DNA of 64,000 bases from positions 99,200,001 through 99,264,000 of the forward strand of contig NC_042998.1 in assembly GCF_006345805.1 (NCBI RefSeq), written 5' to 3'. Of this stretch, positions 15,188 to 60,800 are shown in pieces; position 1 is the stretch's first letter; the number at the start of each line of letters is the position of its first letter. The DNA comes from Octopus sinensis (Eukaryota). The translations under genes and the position numbers were made by a program. The notes under the pieces were generated by a model. It did not search any database, was not told the origin of the DNA, and saw only the letters and a program-made list of their open reading frames with translations.

Positions 15188-15825
15188 TATATTACATGTA
15201 TATTTTTATTAATATTTAGCAGAAGCAACAGAGTGGCTCTAGGGGTGTTGTTGTTATTTAGCTCCAGGTCAGCCTTGATTGAATAAACTTAGAATTAAAG
15301 GCATTTGAGCTTTGACTATCCCACCATTTGTATTTTTTAGGCATTGTGTATCTAGGATTGCAATATCATAAGTGCTCTTTTTTAAAGATGGTAATGTGTG
15401 ATGCGTGGAAAAATTCACTAATATTTTTTGCATGTAAGCTGAATACAAGACTTTCCCTTTGGTTTATTTTATGCGGTGTATGTAATAGGTATATCACAAT
15501 TGAATATGCTCAAGCAGACACTGTCCTCCATGTTATCAACTCAGGAGTGTGCCAGGGCTTAGTTATTTGCCTCTATAGGTTTTATTGCTATTTATTATCT
15601 TGAACCACATTCTCTTTTGCACTTCACACTTCAATTTTCAGGATCAAACCTTTCCAACTCGCTACATCAAAACATCGACCTTTTGGCCCATGGGCACCTA
15701 TAGCAGATATCTGAGCTGTGTCTTCAGTATGTAGATAACTTCCTCCCTTCTTCCTACCTGTCTTAGAAGACCTGTAAAAATGTCATGCATGACTAATCCA
15801 TGACTTATCCATCTTCATCATCATC

Positions 15826-16598
15826 ATTTAACATCCATTTTCCATGCTGGCATGGGTTGGACAATTTGATAGGAGCTGGCCAGCTGGAGAACTGTCCAGA
15901 CTCCAATTGTCTGTTGTGGCATGGTTTCTACAGCTGGATGCCCTTCCTAATGCCAACAACTTTACAGAGTGTGTTAGGTGCTTTTTACATGCCACCAGCA
16001 CAAGTGTGTTCATGCAACACTGGCACAAGTGCATTTTATGTGGTATCAGCACCTATAAAGGTCAAGCTTATATGTATAGATGACAGCAATTTTACTTAGC
16101 TTAACATGTCTTCTCAAGTACAGCAAATCACCTCAACTCCCGGTCCTTTGTCATTTCCTCTGTGTGGCCCAGGATCCAAAGATCCCTTATCACTTTGTCC
16201 CACATCTTAGGTTTATTCCTTCCACAGGTTCCCTCCACAATTAGAGATCAGCACTTTTTTTATACAGCTGTCCTCATCTATACACATCACATGACCAAAC
16301 CAGTGCAGTCTTCTCTCTTGCACACAACATCTGATGCCTCTTGTACTCTGTTTTCCTCTTATACCATTCACACTCTGTCATGCATGCACACTGACATTAC
16401 CCATCCAGCAGAGCATCCTAGCTTCATTTCTTTCAAGCCTTCACAAGTCCTCTGTAGTCAAGGTCCATGTTTCACTGCCATGTAGCATTCACTTTGAGGG
16501 AGAGGCCCTTAGTTACCAACAAAAGTAGAAGCTCTCTGAACTTTGCTCAGCCCCTTCTTATAGTAGCAACTACACCTTCAGAACTTTTTCCTCCACTG
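15826..16598 (-). mobile_element. Degraded RTE LINE 3' end
   Basis: (CAT)n tail followed by TTTAACATCCATTTTCCATGCTGGCATGGGTTGGAC. Body is homologous to 22981-24000. Confidence 0.8.
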
Positions 16599-22963: not shown

Positions 22964-22980
22964 TTATATGCATGTGTCGT

Positions 22981-24729
22981 CATCATCATCATCATCATCA
23001 TTGTTTAACGTCCGTTTTCTATGCTGGCATGGGTTGGACGGTTCAACTGGGGTCTGAGAAGCCAGGAGGCTGCACCAGGCCCCAATCTGATCTGGCAGTG
23101 TTTCTACAGCTGGGTGCCCTTCCCAATACCAACCACTCCGTGAGTGTAGTGGGTGCTTTTTACGTGTCACTGGCACAGGGGACAGAGGAGCTAGTATCAA
23201 CCATGATCAGATGGTGCATTTTACATGCCACTGGCACAGAAGCCAGTCAAAGTAGCACTGGCATTGGCCACATTTGGATGGTACTTTTTACATGCTACCG
23301 GCATGGGGGTCACAACTACAATTTCCATTTGATTTCATTTTGATATTGATGTTGATGTTGATGTACTTGACTCAATAGGTCTCCTCAAGCACGGCATGTC
23401 ACCCTACGATCCAAGGTACTTTTGAGTGGGCTGGTTATATGACACTGGTGTAGGTTACAGCTGCAAACTCACTTTGTTTGCCGGGTCTTCTCAATCACAG
23501 CATAACTCCAGAGGTCTCGGTCTTTTGTCATTGCCTTTGTGAGGTCCAACGTTTGAAGGTCATGCTTCACCACCTCATCCCATGTCTTCCGGGGTCTCCC
23601 TCTACCTCAGATTCCTTCCAATTGTTTGGGAGTGGCACTTCTTCACACATTTCTCCTCGTCCATCCACAGTACATGATCATACCAACTTAAACATCTCTC
23701 TTGCATGCTACATCCGATGCTTCTTATGCTTAACATTTCTCTCAGGGTGCTTACACTCTGTTGTGTGTGCACACTGATGTTACACATAGAGTGGATCATG
23801 CTAACTTCATTTCTTTCAAGCTTACAGCAGTCACAGCCTATGTTTCACTGCCGTGAAGCATGGCATTTTGCACACATGCATCATACAATCTACCTTTCAC
23901 TTTGAGTGAGAGACCCTTTGTCACCAGTAGGAGTAGAAGCTTTCTAAACTTTGCCCAGGCTATTCTTATTCTAGTGGTGACACTCTCTGAGCATCCACCT
24001 CCACTACTAACTTGGTCACCTAGGTAGCAAAAACTATCAACTACTTCTAGTTTCTCCCCCTGGCATGTGGTGGAGTCTGTTTTCTGAGCATCTGTTGTGT
24101 TTATTGCCCCTGTTTATCTGCTGCACGCAAAAGCTATCTTCCTGGTTAATCTTCCTTTGATGTTGCTGCACCTCTTATGTGTCCATAGCTTACACTGGGT
24201 TCATCGTATGGAGTTTCTACCTACACCTTTGCAACAGATTGAGCAGGGCCACCTACCTGAAGGGGTATGTGATGTATTTGCCTTCCTACTTACTAGAACT
24301 TTGGTCTTTAAAATCTTGACTCTAAGGCCCTTCAATTCTAAACCTTGCTTCCACACTTGAAGTTTCTTCTCTAGTTCTGGTAGTAGTTCTGCTATGAGGG
24401 CCAGGTCATCAGCATAAAGGGGCTCCCAGGGGCAACCTGTCTTGAATTCCTCTGTTATTGCCTGGAGGACTATGATGTATAAGAGGGGGCTGAGGGCTGA
24501 TCCTTGGTGGACCCCAACGTCTACCCAGAATTCTTCACTATAACTCATTTCCAATCCTAAACCTACTAACGGCATCTCTGTATAGGGCTTGTACAGCTCT
24601 TATTAACTATTTGTCAATCCCCAGTTTCTGCATTGCCCACCAGATAAGGGATTGGGGTACCCTATCAAAGGTTTTCTCTAAGTTCACAAAAGCCAAATAT
24701 AGGGGTTTATCTTTGACTAGGTATTTCTC
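22981..24729 (-). mobile_element. 5'-truncated RTE-clade LINE (RT core to (GAT)n tail), inactivated
   Basis: Minus strand reads EKYLVKDKPLYLAFVNLEKTFDR, GVHQGSALSPLLY, LYADDLALI, a Cys/His-rich insert and the ORF end ..AVIEKTRQTK* (~23470). Then 3' UTR and (GAT)n tail. Frameshifts and stops present. Confidence 0.93.
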
Positions 24730-36086: not shown

Positions 36087-36489
36087 GGTGAAGCAATCAT
36101 CTTAAACAAACGGTCATGTCTGCACCTATGAATCTATCTTTTATTTTCCACTTGTTTTAGTCATTGGACTACAACAGTGCTAGAGCACAGCCTTGAAGGG
36201 GGTTAGTCAAACAAATTTATCATAGTTGCTATTTTTTAAAGTTTGATATTTATTTTGTTGATTCATTTGCTAAGTTACAAGGAAGTAAACAAACCAGCAT
36301 TGGTTGTCAAACATTAGGGTGAGACAAACACACTGACACACACACAAACATATATACACACACACACATTCATACACACAAACATATGTATGTACACATG
36401 TGGGTCAAAAGGTATGAACCACAACATTTGATATTTTATTTATATTACATTATCATCATCATCATCATCTCATATATATATATATATAT

Positions 36490-38578
36490 ATCCGAACGTG
36501 GCCGTAGTCAGTACCGCTTGTGGTACCAGTGCCGGTGGCACAAAAGAATCCATCCGAACGTGGCCGTAGTCAGTACCGCATCACTCGCCATCGTGCTGTG
36601 GGCACATAACAAACACCATCCGGTCGTGGCCGTTCGCCAGCCTCATCTAGCACCTGTGTCGGTGGCACATAAAAAGTAGTCAGTACCGCTTGTGGTACCA
36701 GTGCCGGTGGCACACAAGAATCCATCCGAACATGGCCGTAGTCAGTACCGCATCACTGGCCATCGTGCTGTGGGCACATAACAAACACCATCCGGTCGTG
36801 GCCGTTCGCCAGCCTCATCTAGCACCTGTGTCGGTGGCACATAAAAACACCTTCTGAAGACCCGGCAAGACTAGTCAGGCCATAAACCATGGCCCCTACC
36901 TGGGACGTAGTCAGTCCACCTGTGCATACCTTCCTCCTTGTGATACTTGTGAAGGCCTGTTGAGGCAAGTGAAAATCAAATCAAATCAAATCAAAATAGA
37001 TGAACATCAATGGAATTTGTATCTTTGTGGTACCAGTGCCGGTGGCACACAAGAGAAAACCATCCGAAAGTGGCCGTAGCCAGTACCGCATCGACTGGCC
37101 TCTGTGCTGTGGGCACATGACAAACACATCCGATCGTGGCCGTTCGCCAGCCTCATCTAGCACCTGTGTCGGTGGCACATAAAAACACCATCCGAAGACC
37201 CGGCAAGACTAGTCAGGCCATAACCCATGGCCCCTACCTGGGACGTAGTCAGTCCACCTGTGCATACCTTCCTTCTTGTGACACTTGTGAAGACCTGTTG
37301 AGGCAAGTGAAAATCAAATCAAAACAAATCAAAATAGATGAACATCAATGGAATCTGTATCTTTGTGGTACCAGTGCCGGTGGCACACACTTTGTGGTAC
37401 CAGTGCCGGTGGCACACAAGAGAACCATCCGAACGTGGCCGTAGCCAGTTCCGCATCGACCGGCCTCCGTGCTGTGGGCACATAACAAACACCATCCGAT
37501 CATGGCCGTTCGCCAGCCTCATCTGGCACCTGTGTCGGTGGCACATAAAAACACCTTCCAAAGACCCGGCAAGACTAGTCAGTCCACCTGTGCATACCTT
37601 CCTTCTTGTGACACTTGTGAAGACCGGTTGAGGCAAGTGAAAATCAAATCAAATCAAAATAGACAAATATATGAACATCAATGGAATTTGTATCTTGTGG
37701 TACCAGTGCCTGTGGCACACAAGAAATCCATCAGTGCCGTAGTCAGTGCGGTGGGCACATGACAAACACCATCCGATCGTGGCCGTTCGCCAGCCTCATC
37801 TAGCACCTGTGTCGGTGGCACATAAAAACACCATCCGAAGACCCGGCAAGACTAGTCAGGCCATAACCCATGGCCCCTACCTGGGACGTAATCAGTCCAC
37901 CTGTGCATACCTTCCTTCTTGTGACACTTGTGAAGACCTGTTGAGACAAGTGAAAATCAAAACAAATCAAAATAGATGAACATCAATGGAATTTGTATCT
38001 TTGTGGCACGTGGCACATAAGAAAACCATCCGAACCTGGCCGTAGCCAGTACCGCATCGACTGGCCTCCGTGCTGTGGGCACGTAACAAGCACCATCCGA
38101 TCGTGGCCGTTTGCCAGCCTCATCTGGCACCTGTGTCGGTGGCACATAAAAACACCATCCGAGCGTGGCCGTCTGCCAGCCTCGTCTGGCACCTGTGTCG
38201 GTGGCACATAAAAACACCATCCGAGCGTGGCCGTCTGCCAGCCTCGTCTGGCACCTGTGTCGGTGGCACATAAAAAAACACCATCCGAGCGTGGCCGTCT
38301 GCCAGCCTCGTCTGGCACCTGTGTTGGTGGCACATAAAAAACACCATCCGAGCGTGGCCGTTTGCTAGCCTCGTCTGGCACCTGTGTCGGTGGCACATAA
38401 AATCACCCACTACACTCTCGGAGTGGTTGGCGTTAGGAAGGGCATCCAGCTGTAGAAACACTGCCAGATCTGACTGGACTGGTGCAGCTTTCGGGCTCCC
38501 CAGACCCCAGTTGAACCGTCCAACCCATGCTAGCATGGAAAGCGGACGTTAAATGATGATGATGATGATGATGATGAT
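36490..38578 (+). repeat. Higher-order tandem array derived from an RTE LINE 3' UTR, ending in the LINE tail and (GAT)n
   Basis: Recurring GTGYCGGTGGCACAYAAAAA-CACCATCCG motif. Four ~310-340-bp units (AAAATCAAA marker at ~36972, 37310, 37640, 37953) and five 62-64-bp units (38124, 38186, 38248, 38312, 38375). Standard tail at 38400-38578. Confidence 0.92.
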
Positions 38579-38587
38579 ATGTATATA

Positions 38588-39463
38588 CAGGGTGTGATGG
38601 GTAAATTGTCACAGTTTATATTTTTAATTTTATGCATGCACAGTGTTTGTTTTTGATTTTGTCAACTACACAGTATGGTAGGGTTAGTTGGGCACTGTCT
38701 GTGAGAAAAACAGCACCATGACGCAATTCACTCTGCTAGAAATTGGGAAACAACATGCTGTACTGCTTGGCATTCAAGCCAAAAGCTCCAATAGGAATAT
38801 TTCAGAGTGATGGGTGTCAATCTGAGTCCCCAAAACATGTACTGAAAGTGATAAAGATCAAACATCCAGTCAACATCATGGTGTTTGGAGTGATCACTAG
38901 TGATGGTGACATTATACCTCCATTTATCTTCCCACACGCCATCAAACTCAACACACAGGTCTATGTCAAGTACCTGGAGGAAGTAGTGCTGCTCTTACTC
39001 AAGAGAGTGGCTGCTAGAAGACTCTATGTCTGGCAATAGGACTCTACACCATGCCATACAAACAGGAGAACCTAGTTTGGCTGTCAGACAATTTCTGCGA
39101 TTACATCACCTCTAACATCTGGCCACCTAACTCCTCAGATGCAACCTCCTTGGCTATTATGTGTGGGGTGTAGTTGAGTGAGAGACCAACAAAACTCCTT
39201 GTAACACCTAAGATGAACTGAAGACAAGGATTATGGCAGCATTGACCAACTTAAACAAGGAGACCATCCAGAAGAGTTGCAGGAGATTCTGAAGTCATCT
39301 CGAGGTTGTGGTTGAAGCCATTGGCAATTTTATTGAATAAATTTACTCTTTAGTATTTCAAGATATTTTTATGCAATTTTGCTAAATATATCTGTTAAAA
39401 TGAGATGTCAGTCCTATTTTCATTTTTGCATAATTTAGACAACAATTCATTCACCGTACCTTG
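38588..39463 (+). mobile_element. Internally deleted Tc1/mariner transposon (maT/DD37D-like, inferred)
   Basis: TA-flanked degenerate TIRs (CAGGGTGTGATGGGTAAATTG / CAATTCATTCACCGTACCTTG). Transposase remnants IMVFGVITSDG, YVWQ*DSTPCH and WPPNS. Confidence 0.88.
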
Positions 39464-42639: not shown

Positions 42640-43198
42640 GGTGCCAGTGCCACATAAAAAGTACCTGTGGCAGTGGTCTATAAACGCACCCATGCCACCC
42701 AGCACACTCTGTTAGGTGGTTGACACATAAAAAGCACCCACTACACTCTCAGAGTGGTTGGCATTGGGAAAGGTATCCAGCTGTAGAAACCTTGCCAGAT
42801 CAGATTGGAGCCTGGTGCAGCCTACTGGCTTGCCAGTCCTCAGTCAAATTGTCCAACCCATGCCAGCATGGAAAACAGACGTTAAACAATGATGATGAAG
42901 ATGATGTATATATCATCATCATCATCATCATCGTTTAACATCCGCTTTCCATGCTAGCATGGGTTGGACGATTTTGACTGAGTGCTGGCGAACCAGAAGG
43001 CTGTACCAGGCTCCAATCTTGATTTGGCAGAGTTTCTGCAGCTTGATGCCCTTCCTAACGCCAACCACTCCGAGAGTGTAGTGGGTGCTTTTTACGTGCC
43101 ACCGGCACGGGGGCCAGTCAGGCGGTACTGGCAACAACCTCGCTCGAATCCTTTTACACATGTCCCCAGCACGGTGCCAGTAAGGCGACTTTGGTAAC
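42640..43198. mobile_element. Two RTE LINE 3' ends tail-to-tail (+ 42640-42905; - 42912-43198)
   Basis: GACGTTAAACAATGATGAT is followed within a few bases by CATCATCGTTTAACATCCGCTTTCCATGCTAGCATGGGTTGG. Confidence 0.85.
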
Positions 43199-45055: not shown

Positions 45056-45105
<50 letters not shown>

Positions 45106-45640
45106 CATCATCATCATTTAACATCCGTTTTCCATGCTGTCATGGGTTGGATGCTTTAACTGAAAACTGGTAAGCTGGGGAGCTGCACCAAGATTCAATC
45201 TTATTTGGCATAGTTTCTACAGCTGGATGCCCTTCCTAAAGCCAACCACTCCAAGACTGTAGTATGCACTTTTTATGTGCCACCAACATGGGTGTCACTT
45301 ATGAAACACCAGCATCAGCCATGACTACAATTTCACTTGGCTTTACAGGTCTCAAGCATGGTATATTACCAAAGGTCTTGGTCACTTGTCATTGCCTCTG
45401 TGAGGCACAAAATTTGAAGGGTGCTTTTTACATGTCACGGAATGGGTGCCAGATATGTGACACTGGCATTGGCCACACACAACAAATTTCTTTCAGTCTC
45501 TGTCTACCAAATCCACTCACAATGCTTTTGTTGGCCTGGGGCTATAGCTGAAAACATTTGCCGAAGGTGCCGTGCAGTGGAACTGAACCTTGAACCATGT
45601 GGTTGGGAAGCAAGTTTCTTACCATACAGCCATGCTTACA
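44838..45640 (-). mobile_element. Family A SINE interrupted by an RTE 3' end (45105-45478)
   Basis: SINE tail 44838-45050, (CAT)n-RTE tail in the middle, SINE head 45485-45640. Confidence 0.8.
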
Positions 45641-57825: not shown

Positions 57826-60800
57826 ACTATGTTCTTAAAAGACTACACCATATATATATATAACTGAAGAGATGGCAGCGTGGATTTCCACCTCAGCATC
57901 TGAAACTCGGAGTTTTATCATGGCTACCGAATAATTGTCACATATTACATTTACAGATAAATTCCTCTATTTACATAATATCGAGGCCTCTTTCTTTCTT
58001 TTGTTGTCTTACCATTTTATCAATATATATATAAGCACCCATGCTGGTGCCACATAAAAGCACCTGGTACACTTTGGAGTGGTTTGAAAGGATATCCAGC
58101 TGTACAAACCATACCAAAATAAACTGGAATCTGGGCAGCTGAGAAGCTGCCCAGTTCTTGTTAAACCATCCAATCCATGCCAACATGGAAAGCAGACATT
58201 AAATGATGATGTGTGTGATGTGAACCATCTCCTTGCCTTGACATTCTGTGATAATTCTAAGTGAGTGTCACCATCATACAAGCAGTGCCTTTCTTTTCCA
58301 GGCTGCCATGAAAATATGTCTGGTCATGAGGAAATATTACCTTATTTGAAAACAAGTAAGGGTTGGTGATAGAAGGGACATCTAGCTGTTGAAAATCTAC
58401 CTCAACAAATTCCCTCCAACCCATGCAAACCTGGAAAAAGTGGGTGTTAAAACAGTGATGAGGAAATGCCAAATTTTCCCCTGGAATGCTGAAATTTTTT
58501 TCTCTTGGTTAAGAATTGTAGATTTAGGATTTGATGTGCTTTCTAACAAAAACACAGAGAGCTACAAATAAGATTAGTGGTTATTGATGAGGTTGAGATC
58601 TTATTGATAAATCATTGATGTGTTTTCTTTGTCTTTATTAACTTGAATGCTCATAAAGTGATTGAGTGAGTAATGGGGGAAGGGAAGAGATTTATAAGTG
58701 AGAGAAAGAGACAGGGAGATAGAAAGAGAGTGAGGAAGGGAAGAAGTGAGTGATGTAAGGAAATAAGAAGTGGGTGTAGTAAGGAGCTAGTGGGTGTGGA
58801 TTAAAAGAGAGAAATTTGAGATGCTGCTGTGGGGTAGTAACAGGTCATCTACCACTTGGTTTGTTAAATAAACATTGAAGTCTTGACATTATTTTTTTGC
58901 ATCTAAGTAAAGGAAATAGATTTTCTTTTTTTTATTTTGTTTTGTTGAATCCATCAAGTTAAGAGGTTGTTCTTTTTGTTGTTTACTCCCACCCACCTCT
59001 ATCAACCCTACTCCAAGTAGACCTATGATCAAAGACATTCCACCTATGAATACTCTTGTTTACACACCAAGTAAATCTAGGGATACATTAACTAACATGT
59101 AATCCTTTTTTAAAGAAGATAGATTCGATTTGTGAGAGATTTGACTGCTATTTCTAGCTGGCTTAATAACCACTCTGAAGCTCTTTCATCAGTTTGTGAG
59201 ATTAAGAGGCTGAGTGGTTGAATGGGAAGTTTGATATCTCAATGGATAAGGGAATATGACTTAACAGTCGCTATTTTTACTGTTTTCAAAAGAAAACATA
59301 GATAAATAATGGTTATATAGAATCCATGTGAAGGCCTTTCACGTTGTGTTAATATTGTAAAGAATTTGTATAGTTTTACTATTTTCTATTATAACTTAGT
59401 GGAAGGTATCCAAACTAGAAGGACAACTTCAAGCCAAGGGAGATGCACTGTAACAGCTACTCTGACTCATAGGACTCACACTTGCAGATAGCCATCTCTA
59501 TCCCAATAATGGTGAGTGAGGATATGGTCCAGGGGTCAAAAACACCAGAGGTCTCCTATGCTCCTGGCTTGACCATAAAGCTATCAGAAAGTGACCAATA
59601 TAGTTTGCTCTTCTCAGCCTAACGAGCAGTGGATCCTAGACTGGTAGTTGATCACAGTAAGTTGCTACTGGAGAAGGTGTCACAGCATGTCACATCCTAG
59701 TAGATGGGGGTCCTACCACCACAGAATGGGAAAATCATCATGCTGTCAGGTTTTTTACTGTCCCTTCAGTCTAGCCTTGCTGGCTCAAACTAGGAACAGA
59801 AGCCTGTGGCCTCTAGGCCATGCTTTATGATTTCGTTAAGAGCAACATGGAGCAGAAGGCAGCCAGCACTATAACCCCTCACTAGCTGTAAGTGCCTGTA
59901 AAAAGTATCAACCCTGGCATTAACTCAGATAAGAAAAGACCTCAGGTGGGTCATGACTCTGTTCATCTCCAAGAGAGCTTGAAATGGAAACAAATGGATA
60001 AGAAGAGTTTTTAACCAGCCACAACCACACCTCAAATAGCCCTCATCGGCAGTGGTACTGATTCTGCATGTATCTGAAGTCCCAGACCTTCCCTTTTGAA
60101 GATGAAAACATTCATTCATTCATTCAATGTTACACCCAGTAATTAGTAAGGTATGTTTTATATAGTGTGGCTGTTGTACTTCAGAAGACAAATGTTCTAC
60201 TATAGCCTCAAATTGAGTAAAGCTGTAGTGAAATTTAGCAAACAGAAACTGTACAGAACCCCCCCCCCCCCCACACACACACACACACACACAAGTGTGT
60301 GCATATGTGTGTGTGTTAACAAAAGTATCTTGTGATATTTTATGTAAGTTGCTTACATGTAAATTGCTTCCCTTTAGATCTTCTTGACTCTGAATTTCAT
60401 CCACCTCTGAATTAGATCAAATAAGTTCCAAGGTATCAGTCTATATAATAGGCAGTGGACTGGCAGAATCATTAGAGGTTGTGGTATGTAGTTAAGATCC
60501 TTTGTATTCCAAATTCAAATTCTGCTAAGGCCAAATTTGCCTTTCATTCCTTCTTGCTCAACAAAGTATAAGGCCTTTAATATTCCTATAAAGCATCCTA
60601 GATGAGGCTAGAAATATGATAGACGACCAAGAGTAAGACATATTTTCAGTTTAGTGACTGAATCCAGTAAAAATAAATAAGAATTGCAGAGATTAGTTCC
60701 ATGGGATAATGAGTAATGGGTAGCAAATTTACAACAATATTTTCATTTTCAGGCATGGCTATTTATGTTTGTTTACATTACTAATGCACTTAGGAATGGA

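What the first reader, a model, noticed from the sequence alone, without database searches (positions are those of the whole stretch)
36490..38578. 2.1-kb higher-order array made from a LINE 3' UTR, with hairpin repeats and multimeric ~335-nt units
Seen: a ~30-bp motif (GTGYCGGTGGCAC hairpin plus AYAAAAA-CACCATCCG) recurs with ~30-40-bp intervening segments. These sit in an initial ~173-bp duplication, four ~310-340-bp units and five 62-64-bp units, then one LINE tail with (GAT)n. Each large unit restarts at GAAGACCCGGCAA, which is the last codons of the RTE ORF at ~23470-23490 (EKTRQ), and runs through the 3' UTR. Further stems occur in the units (TGCCAG/CTGGCA; CACTTG/CAAGTG enclosing CCT/AGG). 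Inference: the reverse transcriptase re-copied the same UTR segment, by template jumping or rolling-circle copying of a circular ~335-nt RNA. Alternatively this is an SVA-like non-autonomous VNTR retroelement. Ordinary post-insertion unequal exchange is also possible.
Basis: partly seen in the sequence, partly recalled or inferred. Interest (0 to 1): 0.75.

Follow-up and report, generated by a model that had tools for sequence, protein, structure and literature searches.

The report
LINE with variable tandem-array tail
This 2.1-kb repeat array is the cut-off tail of a young jumping gene (a LINE) whose relatives carry the same units in the same order at other places in the genome, so it was inherited rather than spun out here from a circular RNA, and such tails likely keep growing and shrinking as DNA after they land.

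Summary
The array is real but was not made at this locus. The unit junction occurs 2,637 times in the genome. Of 57 loci examined, 21 run straight into the end of an RTE-type ORF. The window copy aligns over its whole 2.06 kb, at 99.07%, to the 3' UTR of an ORF-bearing copy on another contig, 172-bp duplication included. Units match by position across loci (160 of 174). It is therefore a 5'-truncated copy of a LINE subfamily whose 3' UTR is a six-unit higher-order array. Rolling-circle copying per insertion and a non-autonomous SVA-like element are not supported. Two arrays carry locus-private marks in several units, which points to remodelling as DNA after insertion, as published for SVA/LAVA VNTRs. 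How the founding junction (2-nt microhomology) arose is open. Sister subfamilies have other 3' UTR duplications, and 19 of 40 long copies have 0.6-1 kb tandem repeats upstream of the ORF. Earlier scan notes describe similar tail-repeat arrays elsewhere in this genome. I found no paper on this family.

The parts
36490..36855 (+). 5'-truncated start of the insertion: the rest of source unit 2 (type I), including the inherited 172-bp duplication (36504-36847); it abuts an (AT)n run
   Evidence: Aligns base for base inside unit 2 of L087; TRF; flank
36856..37193 (+). Large unit = source unit 3 (type G), 338 bp: last ORF codons, first UTR segment, (AAATC)n, two ~62-65-bp repeats
   Evidence: 3 mismatches to L087 unit 3 against 8-19 to its other units; cluster G
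37194..37559 (+). Large unit = source unit 4 (type B), 366 bp, with a 29-bp duplication shared with other loci
   Evidence: 2 mismatches to L087 unit 4; the 29-bp duplication is in other loci such as L033, L051, L066, L071 and L083
37560..37836 (+). Large unit = source unit 5 (type C), 277 bp, shortened by two inherited deletions
   Evidence: 0 mismatches to L087 unit 5; its marker occurs 599 times in the genome
37837..38154 (+). Large unit = source unit 6 (type A), about 318 bp
   Evidence: 7 mismatches to L087 unit 6; nearest neighbours at other loci differ by 0.7-1%
38155..38403 (+). Four 62-64-bp terminal repeats (a VNTR; number varies among loci)
   Evidence: TRF; module strings
38404..38552 (+). 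Single conserved LINE 3' tail ending in a predicted stem-loop (38516-38550), likely the reverse-transcriptase recognition end
   Evidence: Tail start in 56 of 57 loci, stem-loop probe in 54 of 57; fold z -1.9; function inferred
38553..38578 (+). (GAT)n 3' tail
   Evidence: TRF; the same tail at the 55 loci scored

Best explanation
The stretch is a 5'-truncated copy of a young RTE-type LINE whose 3' UTR is a six-unit tandem array shared unit for unit with copies at other loci; it was likely inserted by ordinary target-primed reverse transcription of a linear RNA, and such arrays likely change unit number by DNA-level slippage or unequal exchange after insertion. Shown: inheritance of the array, its link to the ORF, a fixed 3' tail with variable 5' ends, and array types shared by several loci. 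Inferred: one founding duplication joined the start of a 62-bp repeat back to the last ORF codons through a 2-nt microhomology. Later duplications, deletions and collapses happened in genomic copies. Remodelled copies that were still full-length became new source elements, giving subfamilies defined by array structure.
For: Junction 24-mer: 2,637 hits, both strands, control 0. The first 100 hits fall in 57 loci; 21 of 57 run into the ORF end and 56 of 57 have the single tail. The ORF has RVT_1; a sister copy's 1,059-aa ORF adds the endonuclease; long ORF stretches are 99.2-99.7% identical among array copies; L129 has a 993-codon open frame directly before an array. Window against L087: 2,019 matches, 19 mismatches, colinear. 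160 of 174 units are closer to a unit at another locus than to any in their own (medians 0.7% against 3.7%). Two large deletions are shared by 5 loci. L085 repeats a 593-bp block whose two copies share a 20-nt deletion found only twice in the genome, both there (undeleted form 599 times). A substitution in three units of the 12-unit L047 occurs only at those three places. L106 joins first-unit marks to last-unit marks, a collapsed array, and its ORF nests in the array clade. SVA/LAVA VNTRs remodel the same way (PMC4432496, passages).
Against: DNA-level remodelling rests on two loci, both picked because they showed duplications. A source element missing from this assembly, an RNA-level change followed by re-copying, or a local mis-assembly would give the same pattern. 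14 of 174 units have their nearest neighbour inside their own locus or tied. No complete copy (5' UTR, ORF and array together) was fetched; L128 and L129 are truncated in the endonuclease region. No clear target-site duplications were found beyond (TA)n matches. The tree does not resolve whether five single-unit copies are ancestral or collapsed (support 0.79-0.85). RTE clade was not tested by phylogeny with named references.
Confidence: 0.85

Rival explanations
1. The array is inherited, but its changes in unit number are made mostly by the element's reverse transcriptase, which jumps back or forward between repeats on its own RNA during insertion.
For: The junction has only a 2-nt microhomology, which suits a template jump. 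Siblings about 1% apart differ by a median of 3 indels of 10 nt or more (0-8 in 22 copies). Sister subfamilies each carry their own UTR duplications.
Against: Locus-private marks sit in several units at L085 and L047; a jump on the RNA would re-copy the source sequence, not a mark unique to the locus. LAVA de novo integrants showed no VNTR change (PMC4432496, passage; a different element).
Confidence: 0.1
2. Rolling-circle or repeated copying of a ~335-nt circular UTR RNA built the multimer at each insertion (first reader; retrozyme-like).
For: One junction, with point variants, is used throughout (111 CCATCC, 31 CCTTCC, 8 CCAACC among the fetched arrays).
Against: Units within one element differ by a median 5.2% (347 pairs) and keep their order across loci. 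Arrays sit between the ORF and one tail. No ribozyme among 7 weak Rfam matches, all below gathering score. The unit folds no better than shuffles.
Confidence: 0.02
3. A non-autonomous SVA-like VNTR retroelement mobilised in trans.
For: 36 of 57 loci do not reach the ORF, and none of 40 endonuclease-bearing copies fetched had a multi-unit array.
Against: 21 of 57 loci continue into a 95-100% identical ORF; L056, L128 and L129 link the endonuclease region to an array; 5' ends fall at scattered places with no shared head.
Confidence: 0.02
4. Local post-insertion duplication, or an assembly artefact, made this particular array.
For: Local expansion appears to occur at other loci. This locus was not checked with long reads.
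Against: Colinear at 99.07% with a copy on another contig, all sub-duplications included.
Confidence: 0.01

Closest known systems
SVA/LAVA VNTR domain (Lupan et al. 2015, PMC4432496; passages seen)
   Same: Subfamily-specific ordered arrays of repeat units inside a non-LTR retroelement; remodelling at the DNA level with microhomology at breakpoints.
   Different: SVA/LAVA are non-autonomous composites with units of tens of bases. Here the array is the 3' UTR of an ORF-bearing LINE, with ~280-370-bp units that contain 62-bp repeats and a microsatellite and that restart in the last codons.
RTE-2_OV and the O. bimaculoides RTE (Petrosino et al. 2022, PMC9115989; passages seen; 8 of 12 supplements searched)
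   Same: Single-ORF RTE-type LINE with endonuclease, RT and a zinc finger; young copies.
   Different: Five RTE-2_OV primers mismatch four copies of this group at 5-9 of 19-20 bases, so it is not RTE-2_OV, whose 3' UTR is about 600 nt and mostly microsatellite. The O. bimaculoides element could not be compared.
Rodent L1 5' UTR monomers (PMC5381506; passages seen)
   Same: Tandem monomers (about 200 bp mouse, about 650 bp rat) at a LINE's 5' end; 19 of 40 long copies here have 570-1,030-bp tandem repeats upstream of the ORF.
   Different: Other clade. Here TATA-like and AT-rich, promoter activity untested, and the finding itself is at the 3' end.
Tandem repeats in the 3' region of plant Ogre/Retand LTR elements (PMC7004042, PMC11963269: search listing only; Macas et al. 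2009: title in a reference list) and SINE-derived satellites of squamates (PMC10702118; passages)
   Same: A retroelement's 3' non-coding region as a source of variable tandem arrays.
   Different: LTR elements or SINEs; the arrays here are short (1-12 units in the loci seen) and still travel with the element.

Membership tests
RTE-clade LINE | Single ORF with apurinic-type endonuclease and RT | tested here: met
   1,059-aa ORF in sister copy L099: Exo_endo_phos 4e-7, RVT_1 6e-32; 993-codon frame in array-bearing L129
RTE-clade LINE | 3' end in a short tandem repeat, with variable 5' truncation | tested here: met
   (GAT)n tail and scattered 5' ends at the 55 loci scored
RTE-clade LINE | RT groups with named RTE elements in a phylogeny | not tested
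   Homologues were almost all unnamed; solved structures hold only L1, R2 and group II RTs. The clade name rests on architecture and recall.
RTE-clade LINE | Target-site duplication | tested here: inconclusive
   Mostly matches within (TA)n runs; (TA)n at the 5' side in 18 of 55 and at the 3' side in 23 of 55
RTE-2_OV family | Matches the published primers | tested here: not met
   5-9 mismatches per primer in 4 of 4 copies tested
SVA-like non-autonomous VNTR composite | No ORF; own 5' head | tested here: not met
   21 of 57 loci continue into the ORF; no shared head seen
SVA-like non-autonomous VNTR composite | Ordered, subfamily-specific arrays of repeat units | tested here: met
   Unit strings such as D-I-G-B-C-A (5 loci complete) and D-I-B-C-A
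Retrozyme / rolling-circle multimer | Self-cleaving ribozyme in each unit | tested here: not met
   No ribozyme family in Rfam at E up to 10; an undescribed motif is not excluded
Retrozyme / rolling-circle multimer | Units of one insertion near-identical, not position-specific | tested here: not met
Retrozyme / rolling-circle multimer | Circular unit-length RNA | not testable with these tools
   The junction is genomic, so ordinary RNA contigs cannot tell a circle from a linear transcript

The most novel reading that the evidence does not exclude
This RTE group turns both of its ends into tandem arrays as part of its life cycle: 0.6-1 kb promoter monomers at the 5' end, convergent with rodent L1, and 3' arrays founded by its own reverse transcriptase jumping back to the last codons. 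Extra 3' units raise mobilisation, so array length is selected at the level of the element and seeds new satellites.
Probability: 0.15. Interest if true: 0.62.

Novelty: new variant of a known kind. Interest (0 to 1): 0.33.

Why it matters
The locus itself is ordinary: one of about 600 copies of its subfamily. The family is useful as a natural record of how a tandem array evolves inside an autonomous LINE. Position-specific unit marks let each duplication or collapse be placed before or after insertion, which makes the RT-level against DNA-level question testable at scale outside primate SVA. It also warns that consensus-based repeat libraries will likely collapse or split such tails.

Tried and rejected
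Ribozyme in the unit: Rfam gave 7 weak matches in 36300-38800, none a ribozyme. Special hairpin structure: not above shuffles. Identity with RTE-2_OV: rejected by primers; its sequence was not found in 8 of 12 supplements, 4 not searched. Target-site duplications: inconclusive. Sequencing runs: 20 of 21 listed runs hold part of the array under 4 organism labels, no RNA holder listed. Laying 4 runs on one junction gave only short contigs; listed pieces cross the junction in each run, but with 14 to about 30 letters on the short side, so they verify neither this locus nor the junction's age. Literature searches for this family listed no paper describing it; subscription journals and Repbase/Dfam entries are not covered. 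Scan notes by sequence and by words gave nothing relevant.

Full report
Observation. The array is present at 36490-38578. After an (AT)n run comes a 172-bp duplication, then four large units of 338, 366, 277 and about 318 bp starting at 36856, 37194, 37560 and 37837, then four 62-64-bp repeats, one LINE tail and (GAT)n. Each large unit restarts in the last codons of the ORF. The junction joins the start of a 62-bp repeat to those codons through a 2-nt microhomology. The terminal stem-loop is the only near-significant fold (z -1.9). Rfam finds no ribozyme.

The junction is a family trait. An exact 24-mer across it occurs 2,637 times in G000, on both strands, with 0 control hits. Only the first 100 places are listed; they form 57 loci on contig C1, all of which I fetched. 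56 of 57 have the single tail, and 21 of 57 run directly into an ORF end upstream of the array. The ORF piece in L087 is 825 aa with RVT_1. The longest ORF matches among array copies are 99.2-99.7% identical; some are 95-97%. 5' ends fall at scattered positions with no shared head seen. (TA)n lies at the 5' side in 18 and the 3' side in 23 of 55 loci scored (3 of 58 lacked a scorable tail), and no clear target-site duplication was found. A fixed 3' end with variable 5' truncation is what target-primed reverse transcription leaves (established knowledge).

The window's array was inherited. It aligns end to end to the 3' UTR of L087 on another contig: 2,019 matches, 19 mismatches, 11 gaps, three of 10 nt or more. 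The 172-bp duplication is part of the source's second unit, inside which the window copy is truncated. The four large units match L087 units 3, 4, 5 and 6 with 3, 2, 0 and 7 mismatches, while differing from each other by 8-16. I extracted 194 units from the 57 loci, the window and six single-unit copies; truncated units whose ends could not be placed were dropped. Of 174 units in multi-unit elements, 160 are closer to a unit at another locus than to any in their own (medians 0.7% and 3.7%); in-element pairs differ by a median 5.2%. The window reads G-B-C-A of a D-I-G-B-C-A array. A marker of unit 5 occurs 599 times, so this subfamily has roughly 600 copies reaching that far. This rejects per-insertion rolling-circle copying, a local duplication and an assembly artefact as the origin of this array.

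The source is ORF-bearing. An endonuclease-region 29-mer occurs 393 times. I fetched 40 of its first 41 hits, leaving out L056, from which it came. None of the 40 has a multi-unit array. Six have a single-unit version of the same UTR; the rest belong to sister subfamilies about 90-94% identical, with uninterrupted ORFs of 1,043-1,059 aa in three copies. One such ORF has endonuclease, RT and a weak PHD-type finger. Two further loci, picked by cross-reading, link the endonuclease region to an array, and L129 has a 993-codon open frame ending at the array; both are 5'-truncated. The RTE label rests on architecture and recall: homologues were nearly all unnamed and no reference phylogeny was built. 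Five primers show it is not RTE-2_OV (PMC9115989, passages). That the host is an octopus is my inference from recall and from earlier scan notes; no tool named it.

How the arrays change. Against L071, 22 relatives differ by 0.5-3.6% substitutions and by 0-8 indels of 10 nt or more (median 3). Two large deletions are shared by 5 loci, so several source elements with different arrays were active. L106 joins first-unit marks to last-unit marks and its ORF nests in the array clade: a collapse to one unit (tree of 55 of 60 ORF ends, 5 too short). L085 reads D-I-G-B-C-B-C-A; both C units share a 20-nt deletion that occurs only twice in the genome, 593 bp apart, both there. In the 12-unit L047 a substitution shared by three units occurs only at those three places. 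Both point to duplication or conversion after a locus-private change, that is in DNA after insertion. This is inferred from two loci chosen for their duplications; a source missing from the assembly, an RNA-level change or local mis-assembly would mimic it. The founding junction could still be an RT template jump. The tree does not settle whether five other single-unit copies are ancestral or collapsed.

Comparison. The closest working analogue is the SVA/LAVA VNTR: ordered subfamily-specific arrays, remodelled at the DNA level, unchanged in de novo LAVA integrants (PMC4432496, passages). It is not an SVA-type element, because it carries the ORF. Variable tandem repeats in 3' regions are known from plant LTR elements (search listings; a reference title) and SINE-derived satellites (PMC10702118, passages). 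Other papers seen: PMC13282606, part 1 of 3, with no family-level description in that part; PMC6007223, abstract; PMC5381506, passages; PMC6947457, passages. Seven searches listed no description of this family; repeat databases and closed journals were not searched, and 4 supplements of PMC9115989 were not searched. Earlier scan notes on this genome report long in-place arrays of a 69-bp LINE tail repeat and of a 140-bp ORF-end piece; I did not check them.

Beyond the finding. Sister subfamilies have their own 3' UTR duplications. 25 of 40 long copies show self-repeats upstream of the ORF, 19 with periods of 570-1,030 bp, with TATA-like motifs in those read. This resembles rodent L1 promoter monomers; function is untested.

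Verdict. A real feature with an ordinary origin at this locus: a truncated copy of a young LINE subfamily with an unusually long, fast-changing tandem 3' UTR. New variant of a known kind; interest 0.33.

Noticed in passing
L106, L099, L097, L109 and others of L088-L127, the ~2 kb upstream of the ORF: The 5' regions of long copies are tandem repeats (period about 731 in L106, 605 in L099, 1,026 in L109; 19 of 40 with 570-1,030 bp) with TATA-like motifs, like rodent L1 promoter monomers.
   Followed up: partly
L106, L099, L109: about 30 bases before oriented position 2000: A pyrimidine run ending in CAG, like a splice acceptor, lies near the start of the ORF in all three subfamilies; the ORF may be reached by splicing.
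   Followed up: no
L109 and L099 3' UTRs: Sister subfamilies carry different 3' UTR duplications (about 165 nt three times; about 100 nt twice, by eye), so duplication of this UTR is recurrent.
   Followed up: partly
L120 3' UTR: Eleven or so 62-bp repeats alternating two variants, a dimeric higher-order repeat.
   Followed up: no
L099 ORF residues 799-842; L087 ORF piece residues 566-609: A PHD-type finger, below Pfam's cut-off, after the RT core; also listed for many unnamed homologues.
   Followed up: no
window 22980-24500, minus strand: Older, broken copy of a related RTE; its 3' end is 79% identical to the array's tail region. Further tail fragments lie at about 15810-16006, 42721-43117, 45104-45297 and 58035-58211.
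   Followed up: partly
window about 38586-39460: Sequence that looks like a Tc1/mariner-type remnant (label recalled) begins just after the (GAT)n tail; similar sequence lies upstream of L083.
   Followed up: no
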